Positions 1 through 6,000 of a stretch of DNA of 64,000 nt are shown here, one piece after another. The stretch is from NCBI GenBank assembly GCA_027063065.1, contig JAMOSO010000050.1:26243-90242 (forward strand), given 5' to 3'. The position numbers are program-made. This DNA comes from Planctomycetota bacterium. GTDB lineage: Bacteria > Planctomycetota > JAMOSO01. Positions within the stretch are counted from its first letter, which is position 1, and the number at the start of each line of letters is the position of its first letter.

Positions 1-3000
1 ATTAAATCGATGTATTGATTTTGAGACACTTTGACTTCAAGCATATAATCACTGTTTTTAGCAGACAAAACGTCTTCAACTGTTTCGTCTTCTGAAGTTA
101 CAACGTCAAAAGCTGCTATATCCACAAAATTACCTTTCACAGCTTTATATATATCCACAGCTGACAATCCCACTGCTGGCTTTGGCTTATGTGGTATGGC
201 CGCAATTTTTTCAACTGCTTTTCGTTCTGGCTTAGGTGCTTTATAATCTGGATTAGCAGCTTTAAATTCTGCTATTTCAGCTTCCAATGCATCTTTGCGA
301 GCTGCTTCTGATTTTTCCCACTCTTTATTTGCTTTGGTCCAAGGATCTTCATGAACTTTAATAGGTTCTGGCATTGGCTTGCGAGGGGTACGGATGCTTT
401 CTTTTTTGATACATTCCTGTAATTCCATAATACCTTGCAACAATGCTTCAGGGCGTGGTGGACAACCAGGAATATAAACATCAACAGGTACGATAGTATC
501 AGCACCTTTACAAACCGAATAATTATCATACATAAACGGCCCACCAGAGACAGTACAAGCCCCCATGGCAATAACATATTTTGGTGCTGGCATTTGATCA
601 TAAAGAATTTTTAAACGCGAAGCCATTTTTTCGACAATGGTACCCGCCAATATGATTAAATCTGCCTGACGTGGGGTTGCACGAACAACCTCAACACCAA
701 AACGCGACCAATCGTGATGAGAACCACCCACGCTCATCATTTCAATGGCACAACAACTTGTACCATAAACTAAAGGCCAAAGAGAATTTCTCCTGGCCCA
801 ATTGACTAAAAAGTCAACGCTATTGACCATCTGCTTTCCACCGGGGAGCGGATCTAAAACAGGTGGCAATTTTTCTAAAACTGTGAGGCCCATAATTTGC
901 CTAACTCCACTTTAATACGCCCTTGCGCCAAGCATAAAGCAATCCAAATGCCAAAATTACAAAGAAAACAACTAGCTCTACCATCACTGTGCTTATACTT
1001 AAGCCAGCAATTAAACCATTAGCTACATCGTTGTAAATTCTTACGCAAGGAAAAAGAAATAAGGTTTCAACGTCAAATATCATAAATATTAACGCGAAAA
1101 TATAATAACCAACTTTAAAACGGACGTGCGTCTGACCTATAGTCAACTCTCCACATTCGTAAACTAAATTTTTGTGCTCATTGTCCGGGGAACTATAACT
1201 TAAAATCCATGAGCCAATCATACCGCCAGCAACAAACAGTATACCCAGAACAGTCATAAAAGGGATAATTGTGTAATTTTCCATAACTACCTAACAAAAT
1301 AAAAAATTTAAAAGACCGCATTTTATTAAAGGTCGCAATTGTACGGTATTTCACAATACTTAACAACTATTTTTCTCTAAGTTGCTAATTTTGTCTATTC
1401 TGCGTTGGTGTCTGCCACCTGTAAATTTGGAATCAATAAAAGCATCTAAAATCGCATGCAAATCATCGTACAATGGCACTCTACCACCAAAAGCCAATAC
1501 ATTAGCATTATTATGCTCCTTAGCCATCGTAGCTGTAAACACATCATTAACCAATGCGCATCTAATACCATCAACCTTATTAGCGGCAATAGAAATACCT
1601 ATGCCAGTGCCACATAAAACTACGCCAAAAGACACGCGTCCGGCAACAACTTCACAAGCCACAAGCTCCGCCTGATCAGGATAATCAGCAGAAACCCCGT
1701 CGGCAACACCCAAGTCTATACACTCTATGCCCCTTTGTTGCAAATGCGACACAACCTTTAACCTACGCTCTACCGCACCATGATCACTAGCTATAGCCAC
1801 TATATCTGACATAAACTTTCCTTTATTGATAAAATTAAACAATTAAATAACCATACAAATATGCATCGCACATATTTGATTACAAATTATGATTATACAA
1901 ATTTTAAAATAGATATGGTGATATCATCGTGCTGTTCTGCATCACCTCTAAAAGCTTCTAAATCTTCATAGATGCCATCAACCATTTTTCTAGCTGAACC
2001 AGAGACTAATTTTAATAACAAAGCCATAAAACGCTCTTCACCGTACTCTTCACGTTTACTATTCATCGCTTCTACTACACCATCGGTATAAAATATAGCA
2101 AAATCGCCTGTTTCAAAATCAATAGTTACATCTTTTAAAGCTTTTCCAAAAATCAAACCCTTATCAAAGCCCAACGCAATACCATTAGGGTTAAATAGCT
2201 CTAATTTATTAGTAGCTTTGCGATACACAATCAAAGGATTATGTCCAGCACTACATAACTGCATACTACGTGTTTTAGAATCTAAGATAGCATATAATGC
2301 CGTTACAAACATACCTTTGCGTATTTCACGACTCAAGGTATGATTTACCTGAATACAGGTCTTATGAGCATCAGGATTATCACGACTTTCCAAACGCATA
2401 AGCATTCTCGCCGAAGTCATAACCATCGAACCAGGTATTCCTTTACCAGATACATCGGCGACAACTATCCCCATATATCTATCATCGATAGGAATATAAT
2501 CATAATAATCACCACCAACCTCTTTTGCAGGATGATAAATAGCATAAAATTCACAACCATCTATAACTGGAAAAGCCTTTGGCAACAAAGCATTTTGAAT
2601 CTCTGTAGCAATAGATAATTCATGTTCTAATTGATGCTGAACAATCTCTGCATCTTTTGCCTTTAATAATTGCTTAGTCATTATGTTAAATTCATAAGCC
2701 AATACACCTATTTCATCATTAGTTGTTGGTATTGTTTGGTGATTTAAATCTCCACCAGCTACTATTTGTATATCATCTGTTAAAACAGCCACCGGCTTAG
2801 TCACCACCGTTGCCAACATTAACGACATCAGTAAACTGGCCAAAATAGCACAGCCACCTATTATTAACGAATACTTCAGTAACTCGTTTTTTTGTTCATC
2901 AATAGATACTCCAGACAGAATTAACATAGCAGTGCCAATACGCTGACCTGTTTTAAGACTAGTAATCGGGGCTTTAAATCCAAAATAACGCTCTGTTGTA

Positions 3001-6000
3001 CCCAAATGGCCATCGACAATTGGCGTATAATCTCCAGAAGAGATTTTAACTATACTCGTATCAATATTATGTCTTTTACCATTTTTAAATATAAAATTTT
3101 CACTGGATTTTTGGGCTATACTGTAATTTTTCTTTTCCGACTGAAGAACTGGAGGATTTTGACCATGACTATTTTTTAAATCAATAATATCCGCATTTAA
3201 CACCAAGCTAGAAACTTTTGATATCGATGGATAATCTAAGATTTCAGTTAGCGTAGATTCTCGCTCTTTATACCAGTTTTCCAAACTTTGCTGATAAAGC
3301 TTACGAAATTTATCAAGGTTATACACAAGCCTAGGACTACGCTCTGTCAAATAATAACGTATACTTCTTTTTTCAGGAGGTAAATTGCCTTCAACATCAT
3401 CTAAACCATCACCAAAAGACAACTTCTTTTTAGGTGGCATACGCTTTAAAGAATGCCTATTTTCTAAGATATCACGCCCGTAAATTTTTAATAAATGAAT
3501 GGCACTCATACCATCTAATTTGATTTGATTTTCTACTGTTTTCTCAATTTTATTAATATTTAATATCGTCCATACGCCAACCAACAAAATCAAAAAACCC
3601 ATAATTGGCAAAGCAAATTTAAATTTTAATGACAACCCTGATTGTCTTTTTTTATGCACAAACACACTGTCAAAAGTAGAGTCCAAGCTTGTCGATACCG
3701 AATTATCTATCTTTTTAGACTTCTTAATGATTGGCTTGCTTTTAGTCTTTTTATTAGAAACTTTTTTTGTGACCTTTTTACTGGCTACTTTACGCATAGG
3801 AGACTGCTGAATATCAGACGTATCAGCCCCAACTTTTATAGGCGAAACAGCCCTAGAAGCAACCTTTGACTGCTTCTTAACAACTTTTTTTACTGTCTTT
3901 TTAATAGGCGCATCAGATATGGTAGTTTCAGAAAGCGATGACGCTGGACGAGTAGAGACTTTTTTAACAATAGTTTTTTTGACTATTTTTTTGGTTAATT
4001 TTCCTTCAGGCACCAAGAAGGCCCTCCCGTAGCAGTAAATATAAATTTAAGAATACACAAGACACTAACCCAGCCACTATATCATCCATTAAAACGGGCC
4101 ATGCTCCCTTACATTTATCAATCGCACCGATAAACCAAGGTTTAGCTATATCAAAAAATCTAAATAGCAAAAAACCTACCACGGAAACCTCAAGCATCAT
4201 AACCATAGACATATCTAAAAAGCCTTTAACCCAAATAAAAGTCGCACAAATTCCTGCAAATTCATCAATAACAAAAGTTTTAGGATCATCACTGCCACTT
4301 TCAACAACAGCCTGAGGATACACTAAAATAGAAATGATACTCGATATAACACATAGAGCAATCATTATTAAAGAAGAAAATAAATTATTTGTCATTAAAC
4401 AAAAACACAACAGCGTCGCCACAAGTGCACCAAAAGTGCCTGGTGCAAAAGGGATAAACCCAGTATATAAAACAGCATAAAACAAACGCCCTAATACTTT
4501 CACAATTAACTCTCTTTTAATAAATTAGATGACAACCAATCAAATACTTCTGTAACTGTAATATCAGTCAAACCACACGAACTATCACTACCATTAGTAT
4601 TATCATCGTTTTTCTTTTCAAAAACCTTAACATTTTTTCCCCATGGCCGCCATAAATAGCTGTATGTGCTACCAAACAACACAGCCACTGGAAGATTCAA
4701 TGCCGCAGCCATATGCGCAGGCCCCGAATCCAAACCTACAAATCCAACAGAAATGCTCATAATACCAGCTGTTTGCATCAAATTGGTTTTGCCTGCAATA
4801 ATTTTTATATATTCACAACCTTGGGATATTTGTTGTAGATAATCAACATCATTACTAGCACCCAATAGTAAGACCTCTAAGCCCAACTTATCATACAACA
4901 ATCTGCACAACTGACGCTTATTATCCATACCCCACTCATTTTGACCCCTAACCACCGCATGCATAACTACAAAGTTTGTCTGCACGCCCAATTCTTTGAC
5001 AATGGTTTTAGATTTGGCAAGCAATTGGTTGTCAATGGGCAAATGCTGTCGCCACTGATTTTGTTTACCTACAATAAATCCAGCCTGTTCAAAAGCAGAC
5101 ATAACTCTTTCTACAGAATGATACTTTTTTTCTATCCCCGTAAACTCTTGGGGATGCTGAATGATTTGGGTATAAAACCTGCATAATGGCGAACCTGTTT
5201 TACTGCCCAATCTTTTTTTGGCAAAAGAAGCCAAGGTCAACAATACAGAACGTGGACCCCCATGCAGATTAATCGCCATATAAAAAGGCGTTTTAATCAA
5301 CCAAAAAAACAATTTTATTTGACTGATAATATCTTTTTTTACAATAACTAAGTTAGCAATATGCTGATTGCTAGAGAGTACATCACCCATACCTTCTTCT
5401 GCCAAATAATGTATGCGAATATCTGGATAATATTTATGTATTTGCTCAAGCACAGGCGTAGTTAAAACCATATCACCAATGGAGCGCAAACGAACTATCA
5501 ACAAATTTTGGGTAGACTTCATGGCAAGAGTGTAGGTGAATTATTTAACAGTGCAATTTGTTTTTATTATTATATAATTTTAAAAATTAAATTTATATCA
5601 TCATTATGATAATTGCAATTATTATTTAGTTAGAGTTTAAAAAATGAACCAAGAAAAAATATTAGTAACCAGTGCCCTCCCATACGCCAATGGCCCCATA
5701 CATTTTGGACATATCGCAGGAGCATATTTACCTGCCGATATATTTACTCGCTACAAGCGTATGACTGGCGCAGATATAGTCTATGTCAGCGGAACCGATG
5801 AACATGGCTTTGCAATTACTATTGGCGCCCAAGCAGAAGGCCATTCACCACAAGAACATGTCGATAAATACAACAAGGTAATATCTAATATTTTTAAACA
5901 ATTTAATATTTCTTTTGACAATTTTTCACGAACTTCAATGCCACACCATCATAAACTGGCACAGCAGTTTTTTACTCAAATCAGAAACAATGGCTACATA

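What the first reader, a model, noticed from the sequence alone, without database searches (positions are those of the whole stretch)
1893..5522. Transmembrane PP2C (SpoIIE/RsbU-like) phosphatase with a histone-H1-like lysine-rich tail, co-operonic with pgpA and an LPS heptosyltransferase
The 707-aa protein has a 130-aa cytoplasmic N-terminus that is almost purely K/V/S/T/P with KK repeats (about 3626-4016). This is followed by TM1, a periplasmic sensor of about 230 aa, TM2, HAMP and a PP2C domain. Its start overlaps the pgpA stop, and pgpA follows a GT9 heptosyltransferase after a 2-nt gap. This places a receptor Ser/Thr phosphatase in an envelope-biogenesis operon. The basic tail could bind nucleic acid, polyphosphate or anionic lipid. 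No anti-sigma antagonist partner lies nearby.
Basis: partly seen in the sequence, partly recalled or inferred. Interest (0 to 1): 0.55.

Follow-up and report, generated by a model that had tools for sequence, protein, structure and literature searches.

The report
Receptor phosphatase with polybasic tail
This is a membrane-bound sensor phosphatase of the partner-switching (RsbU/SiaA) kind whose long, lysine-rich, disordered N-terminal tail is really translated; the tail and the upstream lipid gene pgpA are shared by a mostly planctomycete family, so it is an undescribed variant of a known signalling protein, not a new kind of system.

Summary
ORF 1893..4016(-) encodes a 706/707-aa protein. It has a 126-aa basic tail (24% Lys, net +26 to +28 depending on where the tail is cut), TM1, a 228-aa periplasmic domain, TM2, HAMP, a helical linker and a PP2C domain with its catalytic motifs intact. 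The tail is translated. A GGGAGGG ribosome-binding site precedes the start, 125 stop-free codons have P about 1e-4, and relatives share the N-terminus (MPEGK).

The tail is not peculiar to this gene. Among 85 complete family representatives the median tail is 73 aa with net charge +7, and Lys versus Arg use tracks genome GC. Receptors outside the family have 4-20-aa stubs. "Histone-H1-like" is compositional only.

Relatives share a neighbourhood: rimO-pgsA-pgpA-(GGDEF)-PP2C-rsbW-STAS. pgpA lies directly upstream in 33/76 loci. The GT9 gene is local to this window. This window has no RsbW or STAS gene in 64 kb.

The periplasmic domain matches no Pfam family. It models as a PDC/Cache-like fold (pLDDT 77), with weak Foldseek hits to the WalK extracellular domain.

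MetRS suggests a Fibrobacterota-like host, unlike the planctomycete relatives of the phosphatase.

The tail's function is inferred, not shown. Binding to an anionic membrane surface is my preferred reading.

The parts
4506..5522 (-). GT9-family glycosyltransferase gene. It is the first gene of the tightly packed run. It is not a conserved neighbour of the phosphatase family.
   Evidence: PF01075 E 2.9e-25. NCBIfam RfaQ and heptosyltransferase I/II/III models all score below their cut-offs. Absent upstream in 76 related loci.
4006..4503 (-). pgpA (phosphatidylglycerophosphatase A family). It starts 2 nt after the GT9 stop, and its stop overlaps the phosphatase start.
   Evidence: PF04608 E 8e-35. 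A homolog lies directly upstream on the same strand in 33/76 related loci, and within 2.5 kb in 40/66.
4022..4028 (-). Shine-Dalgarno-like GGGAGGG, 5 nt before TTG(4016) and 8 nt before GTG(4013). It lies inside the end of pgpA.
   Evidence: Sequence read directly. The internal ATG at codon 74 has no such motif.
1893..4016 (-). Receptor-type PP2C phosphatase gene, 706/707 aa, stop codon included.
3636..4013 (-). Polybasic, low-complexity, predicted-disordered cytoplasmic N-terminal tail, 126 aa. It is 24% Lys, carries about +26 net charge and contains 12 KK dipeptides.
   Evidence: Composition and the charge-hydropathy test (mean hydropathy 0.424, below the 0.487 boundary). No Pfam match. The feature is family-wide.
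3555..3638 (-). Conserved juxtamembrane motif G-L-S-L-K-F-K-F followed by TM1.
   Evidence: L129, K132 and F133 are invariant in alignment A1. The same [KR]-x-[IL]-x-x-K-[FLV] motif sits at the very N-terminus of receptors outside the family. Hydropathy.
2871..3554 (-). Periplasmic sensor domain, about 228 aa. It has a PDC/Cache-like topology with a poorly conserved, low-confidence insert.
   Evidence: No Pfam family. AF2 model with a 34-sequence alignment: pLDDT 76.7, pTM 0.70, with two long helices, five strands and a C-terminal helix. Foldseek top hits are the WalK extracellular domain, the TlpA dCache domain and LuxQ, all weaker than E 1e-3.
2802..2870 (-). TM2.
   Evidence: Hydropathy.
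2667..2816 (-). HAMP domain.
   Evidence: PF00672 E 4.9e-5, 24.0 bits against a cut-off of 25. Homologs P0002-P0005 carry PF00672. Ten NCBIfam kinase and chemoreceptor models match residues about 355-475, the TM2-HAMP region.
2487..2666 (-). Helical linker between HAMP and the PP2C domain. It holds the conserved E-x-E-L-x-x-A-x-E-I/V-Q-x-x-L-L-P stretch.
   Evidence: Invariant columns E463, E465, L466, A469, E471, Q473, L476, L477, P478 in A1. The role is inferred from the coiled-coil linker mechanism described in PMC12143880.
1899..2486 (-). PPM/PP2C (SpoIIE-type) catalytic domain with the motifs GDYYD, ADVSGKG, YTDG and HDDIT.
   Evidence: PF07228 E 9e-45. Invariant D502, D505, D520, G523, K524, G525, D644, D696 and D697 in A1. 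PDB relatives by sequence are Rv1364c, RssB and SiaA.
1360..1842 (-). rpiB, the downstream neighbour. It stands where relatives carry rsbW-STAS. nuoA follows at 901..1284(-).
   Evidence: PF02502 E 9.5e-50 and NCBIfam RpiB above cut-off. Gene list of locus L001.

Best explanation
The gene encodes a cytoplasmic-membrane receptor phosphatase of the PPM/PP2C (RsbU/SpoIIE/SiaA) class.

Proposed mechanism:
- A periplasmic PDC/Cache-like domain receives an unknown signal.
- The signal passes through TM2, a HAMP domain and a helical linker to a dimeric PP2C domain.
- By analogy with its relatives, the PP2C domain dephosphorylates a phospho-STAS (RsbV-type) protein. This flips an RsbW-type kinase/anti-factor switch.
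- In this genome the partner genes must lie elsewhere.

The N-terminal tail:
- The first 126 residues are translated. They form an intrinsically disordered, strongly cationic extension added in front of the ancestral N-terminus.
- Such an extension is characteristic of this family, whose known relatives are nearly all Planctomycetota.
- It is tethered at the inner face of the membrane. Its most likely role is electrostatic association with the anionic membrane surface (phosphatidylglycerol or cardiolipin head groups), affecting placement or activity of the phosphatase.
- The recurrent co-location of the family with pgsA/pgpA, the last two steps of phosphatidylglycerol synthesis, fits this reading.

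Shown: the architecture, intact catalytic motifs, translation of the tail, family-wide tails, and the conserved pgpA and rsbW-STAS neighbourhoods.
Inferred: the substrate, the signal, and the tail's binding partner.
For: Domains and topology.

Tail is translated:
- A GGGAGGG ribosome-binding site precedes the start, and the internal ATG has none.
- P(no stop in 125 codons) is 1e-4.
- The N-terminus MPEGK is shared with P0125 (MPEGKK) and resembles P0002 (MPESED) and L019 (MPEGLQ).
- Tails in GC-rich relatives keep high third-position GC: 0.78, against 0.85 in the gene body.

Tail is a family trait:
- 55/78 genome loci have tails of at least 50 aa.
- Among 85 complete representatives the median is 73 aa with net +7; of the 60 tails of at least 50 aa, 38 have net charge of +8 or more.
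- K/(K+R) falls with genome GC, rho -0.65, p 9e-8.
- 115 other HAMP-PP2C receptors have stubs, nearly all of 4-20 aa.
- Those receptors start with the same juxtamembrane motif that follows the tail here.
- The tail is predicted disordered.

Partner switching: rsbW lies directly downstream in at least 46/73 loci and STAS in 49/73. Both were verified with Pfam.

Lipid link: pgpA, pgsA and rimO lie upstream. The pgpA-PP2C pair persists here although both outer flanks differ.

Linker mechanism: PMC12143880.

Sensor fold.
Against: - No STAS or RsbW gene lies in the 64-kb window. The substrate in this organism is therefore unverified.
- The lipid-binding role of the tail rests only on charge, membrane tethering and gene neighbourhood.
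- Tail length and charge do not differ significantly between loci with and without pgpA/pgsA upstream (92 vs 69 aa, p 0.16; net +12 vs +6, p 0.11).
- Most family tails are Gly/Ser/Pro/Arg-rich with few hydrophobic residues.
- The rimO-pgsA-pgpA neighbourhood could be inherited gene order with no functional meaning.
- The sensor fold assignment is weak: no Foldseek hit at E <= 1e-3, TM-scores 0.2-0.3, no Pfam hit, and hhalign against dCache sensors is not significant.
Confidence: 0.6

Rival explanations
1. The lysine-rich region is not translated. The true start is Met74 or a codon just before TM1, and the 'tail' is an accidental open frame in the pgpA-PP2C spacer.
For: An in-frame ATG exists at codon 74, and GTG/TTG codons exist at 111-139. 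In GC-rich relatives long stop-free stretches are expected by chance (P 0.05-0.3 each).
Against: - The frame is stop-free at 36% GC (P 1e-4), while the other reading frames of the tail region carry 1-19 stops, most of them several.
- A strong ribosome-binding site precedes codon 1/2 and none precedes Met74.
- The start overlaps the pgpA stop, as in coupled translation.
- Independent gene calls keep the tail.
- The N-terminal MPEGK recurs in relatives.
- AT-rich relatives also have 55-147-aa tails, P 4e-5 to 2e-2 each.
Confidence: 0.05
2. The tail is a polyanion-binding module in the sense the first reader suggested. It would bind DNA/nucleoid (H1- or Hc1-like), ribosomes/RNA or polyphosphate, and so tether or regulate the phosphatase through nucleic acid rather than lipid.
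For: Lys-rich KK repeats and net charge +26 to +28. A planctomycete precedent exists for a basic tail on a membrane protein binding ribosomes: YidC of Rhodopirellula baltica (Seitl et al. 2014, cited in PMC5186731).
Against: - No similarity to linker-histone or any other Pfam family, even at E <= 10.
- Only charge is conserved across the family, not sequence.
- The tail is fixed to the membrane next to TM1.
- The conserved neighbours are lipid-synthesis genes, not nucleoid genes.
Confidence: 0.2
3. In this genome the phosphatase is an orphan that has left the partner-switching circuit. It would act on other phosphoproteins, for example envelope or lipid enzymes encoded beside it, or substrates of Hanks-type kinases.
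For: No STAS or RsbW in 64 kb, and rpiB/nuo stand where relatives have rsbW-STAS. Tight packing with GT9 and pgpA. The protein is a deep, isolated branch of the family, and the host may belong to another phylum.
Against: - Unlinked partners are normal in some lineages. The chlamydial module has the same component types: the sensor phosphatase RsbU, RsbW, and RsbV1/RsbV2 (PMC11619594); that its genes are scattered around the genome is my recollection and was not checked here.
- The catalytic domain and linker are as conserved as in relatives that do have partners.
- Only about 64-72 kb of the genome was visible.
Confidence: 0.15
4. The module works like Pseudomonas SiaABCD. The phosphatase would control a STAS-like adaptor that activates a diguanylate cyclase, so the output is c-di-GMP rather than a sigma factor.
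For: The best NCBIfam model is SiaA (E 5.6e-17), and the SiaA PP2C structure 6K4E is among the PDB relatives. A GGDEF gene lies directly upstream of the phosphatase in 9/66 related loci and in L085. The window is rich in c-di-GMP genes: HD-GYP at 8266..9798, GGDEF at 26988..28202, MlaF-GGDEF at 42542..43753. SiaABCD is described in PMC7647112 and PMC8457831.
Against: The SiaA score is 61.5 bits against a cut-off of 700. The similarity covers only TM2-HAMP-PP2C. No GGDEF gene adjoins the gene in this window. Most relatives lack an adjacent GGDEF gene.
Confidence: 0.15

Closest known systems
Chlamydia trachomatis RsbU (CT588), the receptor phosphatase of the chlamydial Rsb partner-switching module
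   Same: A sensor PP2C phosphatase with a periplasmic, PAS/PDC-like sensor domain, feeding an RsbW/RsbV switch (PMC11619594). Its periplasmic domain (PDB 6MAB) appears among the Foldseek hits (rank 42, E 0.16). From my recollection, not checked here, its partner genes are not adjacent to the phosphatase gene.
   Different: No sequence similarity in the sensor domain was detected: the PDB sequence search found only PP2C domains. The structural match is far from significant. No long polybasic tail or pgpA linkage is known to me for it; this was not tested here.
Pseudomonas aeruginosa SiaA (SiaABCD module)
   Same: A membrane-anchored HAMP-PP2C phosphatase acting on a small partner protein that is phosphorylated by a cognate kinase. 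It is the best NCBIfam model and a PDB relative.
   Different: 61.5 bits against a cut-off of 700, so this is not an equivalog. The sensor region differs. There is no siaBCD-like operon here and no polybasic tail.
Bacillus subtilis RsbU and SpoIIE (PPM phosphatases of sigma-B and sigma-F partner switching)
   Same: The same catalytic family (PF07228). A helical linker enters the PP2C domain, which is the proposed general activation route (PMC12143880). From my memory, not checked here, SpoIIE is also membrane-bound with a regulatory N-terminal cytoplasmic tail.
   Different: RsbU is soluble and is activated by RsbT. SpoIIE has ten TM segments and a short tail that is not basic. Neither has a periplasmic sensor, a HAMP domain or a polybasic tail.
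Extracellular (PDC/sCache-type) domain of the sensor kinase WalK
   Same: It gives the top Foldseek matches for the modelled periplasmic domain (9a5d, 4ywz, 7dud; E about 3e-3, probability 0.75-0.98). The NCBIfam WalK model aligns to residues 269-455.
   Different: The matches are below usual significance, with TM-scores of 0.19-0.34. The domain here is about 80 aa longer, with a low-confidence insert. The output is a phosphatase, not a kinase.
Lysine-rich tails of histone H1, chlamydial Hc1/Hc2 and actinobacterial HupB
   Same: Composition: Lys-rich, low complexity, disordered.
   Different: No detectable homology. The tail is membrane-tethered. In relatives it is Arg/Gly/Ser/Pro-rich.
Extended basic C-terminal tail of YidC from Rhodopirellula baltica
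   Same: A long cationic, disordered cytoplasmic tail on a planctomycete inner-membrane protein that binds a polyanion, the ribosome (reference seen).
   Different: A different protein family and the opposite terminus. There is no evidence that the tail here binds ribosomes.

Membership tests
PPM/PP2C phosphatase, SpoIIE/RsbU type (PF07228) | Profile match above the curated cut-off over the whole domain | tested here: met
   153.4 bits against a cut-off of 25; residues 511-706 cover profile positions 1-191 of 192.
PPM/PP2C phosphatase, SpoIIE/RsbU type (PF07228) | Metal-binding Asp motifs (GDxxD, DVSGxG, DG, DD) | tested here: met
   GDYYD, ADVSGKG, YTDG and HDDIT are present and invariant across five family members. 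The same positions align with Rv1364c.
HAMP domain (PF00672) | Profile match directly after TM2 | tested here: inconclusive
   24.0 bits, just under the cut-off of 25. It is supported by PF00672 in homologs P0002-P0005 and by ten NCBIfam kinase and chemoreceptor models matching the TM2-HAMP region.
Partner-switching module (RsbU-RsbW-RsbV type) | A cognate RsbW-type kinase (HATPase_c_2) and a STAS protein encoded with the phosphatase | tested here: not met
   None in the 64-kb window. In relatives the feature is met: rsbW in at least 46/73 loci and STAS in 49/73. Partners may be unlinked here.
Partner-switching module (RsbU-RsbW-RsbV type) | Dephosphorylation of a phospho-Ser/Thr STAS protein | not testable with these tools
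   Needs biochemistry.
SiaA (NCBIfam NF038263 equivalog) | Score above the equivalog cut-off | tested here: not met
   61.5 bits against 700.
Cache/PDC extracytoplasmic sensor domain | Sequence match to a Cache, CHASE or other sensor Pfam model | tested here: not met
   No sensor family in 12 family members even at E <= 10. hhalign against dCache sensors gives probability below 1%.
Cache/PDC extracytoplasmic sensor domain | Fold: a long N-terminal helix, a five-stranded antiparallel sheet and a C-terminal helix leading into TM2 | tested here: inconclusive
Linker histone H1 or bacterial histone-like lysine-rich domains | Detectable homology to a histone-like family | tested here: not met
   Zero Pfam families for the tail, and for the tail of P0002, at E <= 10.
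PgpA (PF04608) for the upstream gene | Profile match above the cut-off | tested here: met
   120.3 bits against 28. The E. coli-type NCBIfam equivalog is not reached: 65.6 against 226.
LPS heptosyltransferase (GT9) for the first gene | GT9 profile match, and assignment to heptosyltransferase I, II or III | tested here: inconclusive
   PF01075 is met (89.5 against 22). All specific NCBIfam heptosyltransferase models score below their cut-offs.

The most novel reading that the evidence does not exclude
The polybasic disordered tail is a sensor of anionic phospholipid. Its electrostatic binding to phosphatidylglycerol or cardiolipin at the inner leaflet would set the activity or placement of the receptor phosphatase. 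The conserved pgsA-pgpA-PP2C-rsbW-STAS cluster would then be a feedback circuit coupling phosphatidylglycerol synthesis to a partner-switching output. The pgpA-PP2C core of this circuit would have been retained, or transferred as a unit, in a Fibrobacterota-like genome.
Probability: 0.15. Interest if true: 0.7.

Novelty: new variant of a known kind. Interest (0 to 1): 0.38.

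Why it matters
Receptor-type PP2C phosphatases are common, but their signals and regulation are poorly understood. This work defines a family with two features I found no description of in the papers searched. The family is large: at least 150 clusters at 50% identity, and its relatives in species genomes are almost all Planctomycetota.

- First, a long cationic disordered N-terminal extension sits in front of the ancestral start.
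- Second, the gene recurs next to the phosphatidylglycerol-synthesis genes pgsA and pgpA.

If the tail reads membrane charge, this would be a simple, testable example of a disordered region coupling lipid composition to a bacterial signalling switch. If it does not, the result is still a corrected annotation. It covers the start codon, the domain map, a PDC-like sensor and the family context. It also cautions that 'histone-like' composition does not imply DNA binding.

Tried and rejected
- **First AF2 model.** The periplasmic domain with 8 sequences gave pLDDT 46 and was discarded. A 34-sequence alignment built from search results worked.
- **Sensor and tail by sequence.** Pfam on the sensor and on the tail found nothing. 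hhalign of the sensor profile against dCache and Lachnospiraceae-type sensors was not significant.
- **Local regulatory signals.** The promoter and terminator scan of 700..5800 was at or below shuffle expectation, so it says nothing about the operon. A DNA-level repeat search of the tail found only a 12-nt x 2.3 duplication.
- **Tail versus pgpA/pgsA adjacency.** No significant association, and the loci are not phylogenetically independent.
- **Host taxonomy.**
  - Exact-sequence look-ups gave no organism names.
  - Loci around the closest MetRS relatives share no gene order with the window.
  - PgpA identity to planctomycete PgpAs is 28-36%, which is uninformative about co-transfer.
  - The second cluster member, P0121, is identical apart from the first residue (M versus V), so it gives no substitution data for the tail.
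- **Literature.** Searches found no paper on this family, on pgpA-PP2C linkage, or on polybasic tails of bacterial receptor phosphatases.

Full report

Yes. The minus-strand ORF 1893..4016 is open for 707 codons from a TTG. The public gene call for the identical protein (P0001) starts one codon later, at GTG 4013, and gives 706 aa.

- Pfam places a SpoIIE-type PP2C domain at residues 511-706 (E 9e-45) and a HAMP domain at 401-450 (24.0 bits, just under the cut-off of 25).
- Hydropathy shows two membrane segments at about 135-154 and 383-405. These enclose 228 residues.
- Everything before TM1 is strongly basic. Residues 1-135 hold 32 Lys, 4 Arg, 6 Asp and 2 Glu, for a net charge of +28. The other 573 residues sum to -5.
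- With this charge distribution and two membrane segments, both the tail and the HAMP-PP2C part lie in the cytoplasm.
- pgpA (4006..4503, PF04608) ends inside the phosphatase start. A GT9 glycosyltransferase gene (4506..5522, PF01075) ends 2 nt before pgpA.
- The tail is an outlier in its own window. Its best 60-aa stretch carries +19. The next of 63 long ORFs reaches +11, and the median is +5.

**2. Is the tail translated?**

Several lines say it is translated.

- At 36% GC, 125 codons without a stop have a probability of about 1e-4. The other reading frames of the same DNA carry between 1 and 19 stops, most of them several.
- A GGGAGGG motif lies 5 nt before the TTG and 8 nt before the GTG. 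The only internal ATG, at codon 74, has no such motif.
- The N-terminus MPEGK recurs in P0125 (MPEGKK). It resembles P0002 (MPESED), P0126 (MPDSRK), L017 (MAEGKK) and L019 (MPEGLQ).
- AT-rich relatives also have open tails of 55-147 codons, with P from 4e-5 to 2e-2 each.
- In GC-rich relatives the tail region keeps the high third-position GC of coding DNA: 0.78, against 0.85 in the gene body.

I put the wrong-start explanation at about 5%.

**3. What the tail is.**

It is low in complexity: 24% Lys, 16% Ser, 12% Val, 9% Thr, with 12 KK dipeptides. It falls on the disordered side of the charge-hydropathy boundary, whereas the PP2C domain falls on the ordered side. Pfam finds no family in it, or in the similar tail of P0002, even at E <= 10. 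'Histone-H1-like' is therefore a statement about composition, not homology.

The tail is not a peculiarity of this gene.

- A scan of one genome per species (185,579 species) returned 80 related loci, nearly all Planctomycetota MAGs. They include Brocadiia/Kuenenia and Uabimicrobium, and all share the TM1-sensor-TM2-HAMP-PP2C plan.
- 55 of 78 usable loci have at least 50 residues before TM1, almost always with net positive charge.
- An exhaustive HMMER search of 1.84 billion cluster representatives gave 150 family members. Among the 85 that are complete, the median tail is 73 aa and the median net charge is +7. Of these, 37 tails are at least 80 aa, and some are as Lys-rich as this one (P0249, P0212).
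- The Lys share of the basic residues falls as genome GC rises (rho -0.65, p 9e-8). What is conserved is charge and disorder, not sequence.
- The other 115 HAMP-PP2C receptors from the first search, from other phyla, have stubs before TM1, nearly all of 4-20 residues. Those stubs begin with the motif [KR]-x-[IL]-x-x-K-[FLV].
- In this family the same motif sits between the tail and TM1 (G-L-S-L-K-F-K-F here; L129, K132 and F133 are invariant).

The tail therefore looks like an extension added in front of an older N-terminus.

**4. Gene neighbourhood.**

Clustering the neighbours of the 80 loci, and checking examples with Pfam, gives a recurrent order: rimO, pgsA (CDP-alcohol phosphatidyltransferase), pgpA, sometimes a GGDEF gene, the phosphatase, an RsbW-type kinase (HATPase_c_2), then a STAS protein.

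Counts:
- pgpA directly upstream on the same strand: 33/76.
- pgpA within 2.5 kb upstream: 40/66.
- At least one of rimO, pgsA or pgpA upstream: 52/66.
- rsbW directly downstream: at least 46/73.
- STAS within 1.1 kb downstream: 49/73.
- GGDEF directly upstream: 9/66.
- GT9 upstream: none.

The GT9 link is local. The family belongs to partner-switching modules.

This window is the exception on the downstream side. rpiB and the nuo operon follow the phosphatase, and no STAS or RsbW-like ORF is detectable anywhere in the 64 kb. The pgpA-phosphatase pair survives here although both outer flanks differ. That is the best argument that the pair itself is under selection. It remains an argument from gene order.

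**5. The periplasmic domain.**

- Sequence methods fail. No Pfam family turns up in 12 family members at E <= 10, and profile-profile comparison with dCache sensors finds nothing.
- Only the two membrane-proximal ends of the domain are conserved.
- An AlphaFold2 model with 8 sequences was useless (pLDDT 46). With 34 diverse family sequences the model reached pLDDT 76.7 and pTM 0.70.
- The improved model has a long helix continuing from TM1, a low-confidence loop, a second long helix, five beta strands, and a helix running into TM2. This is the element order of PDC/Cache (extracytoplasmic PAS-like) sensors.
- Foldseek against the PDB gives no hit at E <= 1e-3. Such sensors nevertheless dominate the list: the WalK extracellular domain (E about 3e-3), TlpA, 2p7j, LuxQ and 3lid. 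The periplasmic domain of Chlamydia RsbU (6MAB) is at rank 42.
- The NCBIfam WalK model also aligns to residues 269-455.

I call the domain probably PDC/Cache-like, not proven. The ligand is unknown.

**6. How it most likely works.**

The catalytic motifs GDYYD, ADVSGKG, YTDG and HDDIT are intact and invariant in the family. The closest solved relatives by sequence are the PP2C domains of Rv1364c, RssB and SiaA.

A conserved helical segment between HAMP and the PP2C domain fits a published mechanism. In it, sensor domains, HAMP included, control dimeric PPM phosphatases through a coiled-coil linker (PMC12143880).

By analogy with its relatives, the enzyme should dephosphorylate a STAS protein and flip an RsbW-type switch. 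The output could be a sigma factor, as in Chlamydia (PMC11619594), or a diguanylate cyclase, as in SiaABCD. It cannot be decided here.

For the tail I prefer electrostatic association with the anionic inner leaflet. The reasons are that it is fixed beside TM1, that only charge is conserved, and that the conserved neighbours make phosphatidylglycerol. One segment (residues 37-60) has a moderate helical hydrophobic moment of about 0.6.

This step is inference. Tail length and charge are not significantly associated with pgpA/pgsA adjacency. Binding to nucleic acid, ribosomes or polyphosphate is not excluded; the basic tail of planctomycete YidC binds ribosomes (reference seen).

**7. Host.**

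The MetRS gene next door (5644..7698) has its best named relatives in Fibrobacteria/Fibrobacterota MAGs (64%, 59% and 52% identity). Eremiobacterota, Wallbacteria, Calditrichia and KSB1 follow. No Planctomycetota appear among the named hits.

In a neighbour-joining tree of the HAMP-PP2C part, the window protein is a deep branch, sister to a clade of 74, and not nested in a shallow subclade. GC content across the gene is ordinary for the window.

One marker gene does not settle the taxonomy. The window may come from a Fibrobacterota-like organism that carries a planctomycete-type phosphatase, through old transfer or deep common ancestry.

**8. Comparison with what is known, and verdict.**

The protein is a member of the PPM/PP2C SpoIIE-RsbU family (tested, met). 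It is a receptor-type relative of Chlamydia RsbU and Pseudomonas SiaA. It is not a SiaA equivalog (61.5 bits against 700).

The family-wide polybasic extension and the recurrent pgsA/pgpA linkage appear undescribed in the papers I could search.

I rate it a new variant of a known kind and of moderate interest. It is a well-defined family with a simple, testable hypothesis. No mechanism has been demonstrated, and nothing contradicts current understanding.

Noticed in passing
window 42542..43753 (-), within mlaE (43756..44553), mlaD and mlaC (41454..42089): The MlaF position of an mla operon is filled by a single 403-aa protein with an ABC ATPase domain (residues 21-170, E 1e-33) fused to a GGDEF domain (residues 247-390, E 2e-18). 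An ABC ATPase of a lipid-transport system fused to a diguanylate cyclase is unusual.
   Followed up: partly
window 5644..7698 (+) versus 1893..4016 (-): Taxonomic conflict. The best named relatives of MetRS are Fibrobacterota MAGs (64%, 59%), while the relatives of the phosphatase are almost all Planctomycetota. This points to a possible old horizontal transfer or an unplaced lineage.
   Followed up: partly
related loci L043, L050, L052-L055, L062, L066, L074, L076, L079 (tails before TM1): In one planctomycete subclade the otherwise variable tails share a short conserved motif, RRMMTPPP-x-G-x-ARKSTG[SA]-x-PA. This suggests a linear interaction or modification motif inside the disordered tail.
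   Followed up: no
related loci L056, L058, L063, L064, L070, L071, L073: A 550-aa subfamily has only a 23-aa Arg-rich stub and, where enough upstream sequence is held, a gene of about 1.3 kb between pgpA and the phosphatase. No rsbW or STAS lies downstream, so the neighbourhood is not uniform across the family.
   Followed up: no
window 38152..41349 (-): The flagellar cap protein FliD is 1065 aa, far longer than usual. It has a faint F5/F8 type C (discoidin-like) hit between its FliD_N and FliD_C parts.
   Followed up: no
L001 13121..21454 (continuation of the contig beyond window position 1): The nuo operon downstream of rpiB has a fused NuoB-NuoC (418 aa). It runs A, BC, D, H, I, J, K, L, M, N with no nuoE, nuoF or nuoG, so it is the 11-subunit type.
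   Followed up: no
window 7691..9798 (-): An HD-GYP-type (HD_5) protein of 510 aa has an unassigned 260-aa N-terminal region. Its stop abuts a DUF2062 membrane protein, about 4 kb from the phosphatase. The window also holds a Tll0287-like-GGDEF protein at 26988..28202, so it is rich in c-di-GMP genes.
   Followed up: no
window 3975..4002: The first KKxVKK units of the tail arise from a 12-nt unit repeated 2.3 times (81% match). This hints that the tail grows by small duplications.
   Followed up: no
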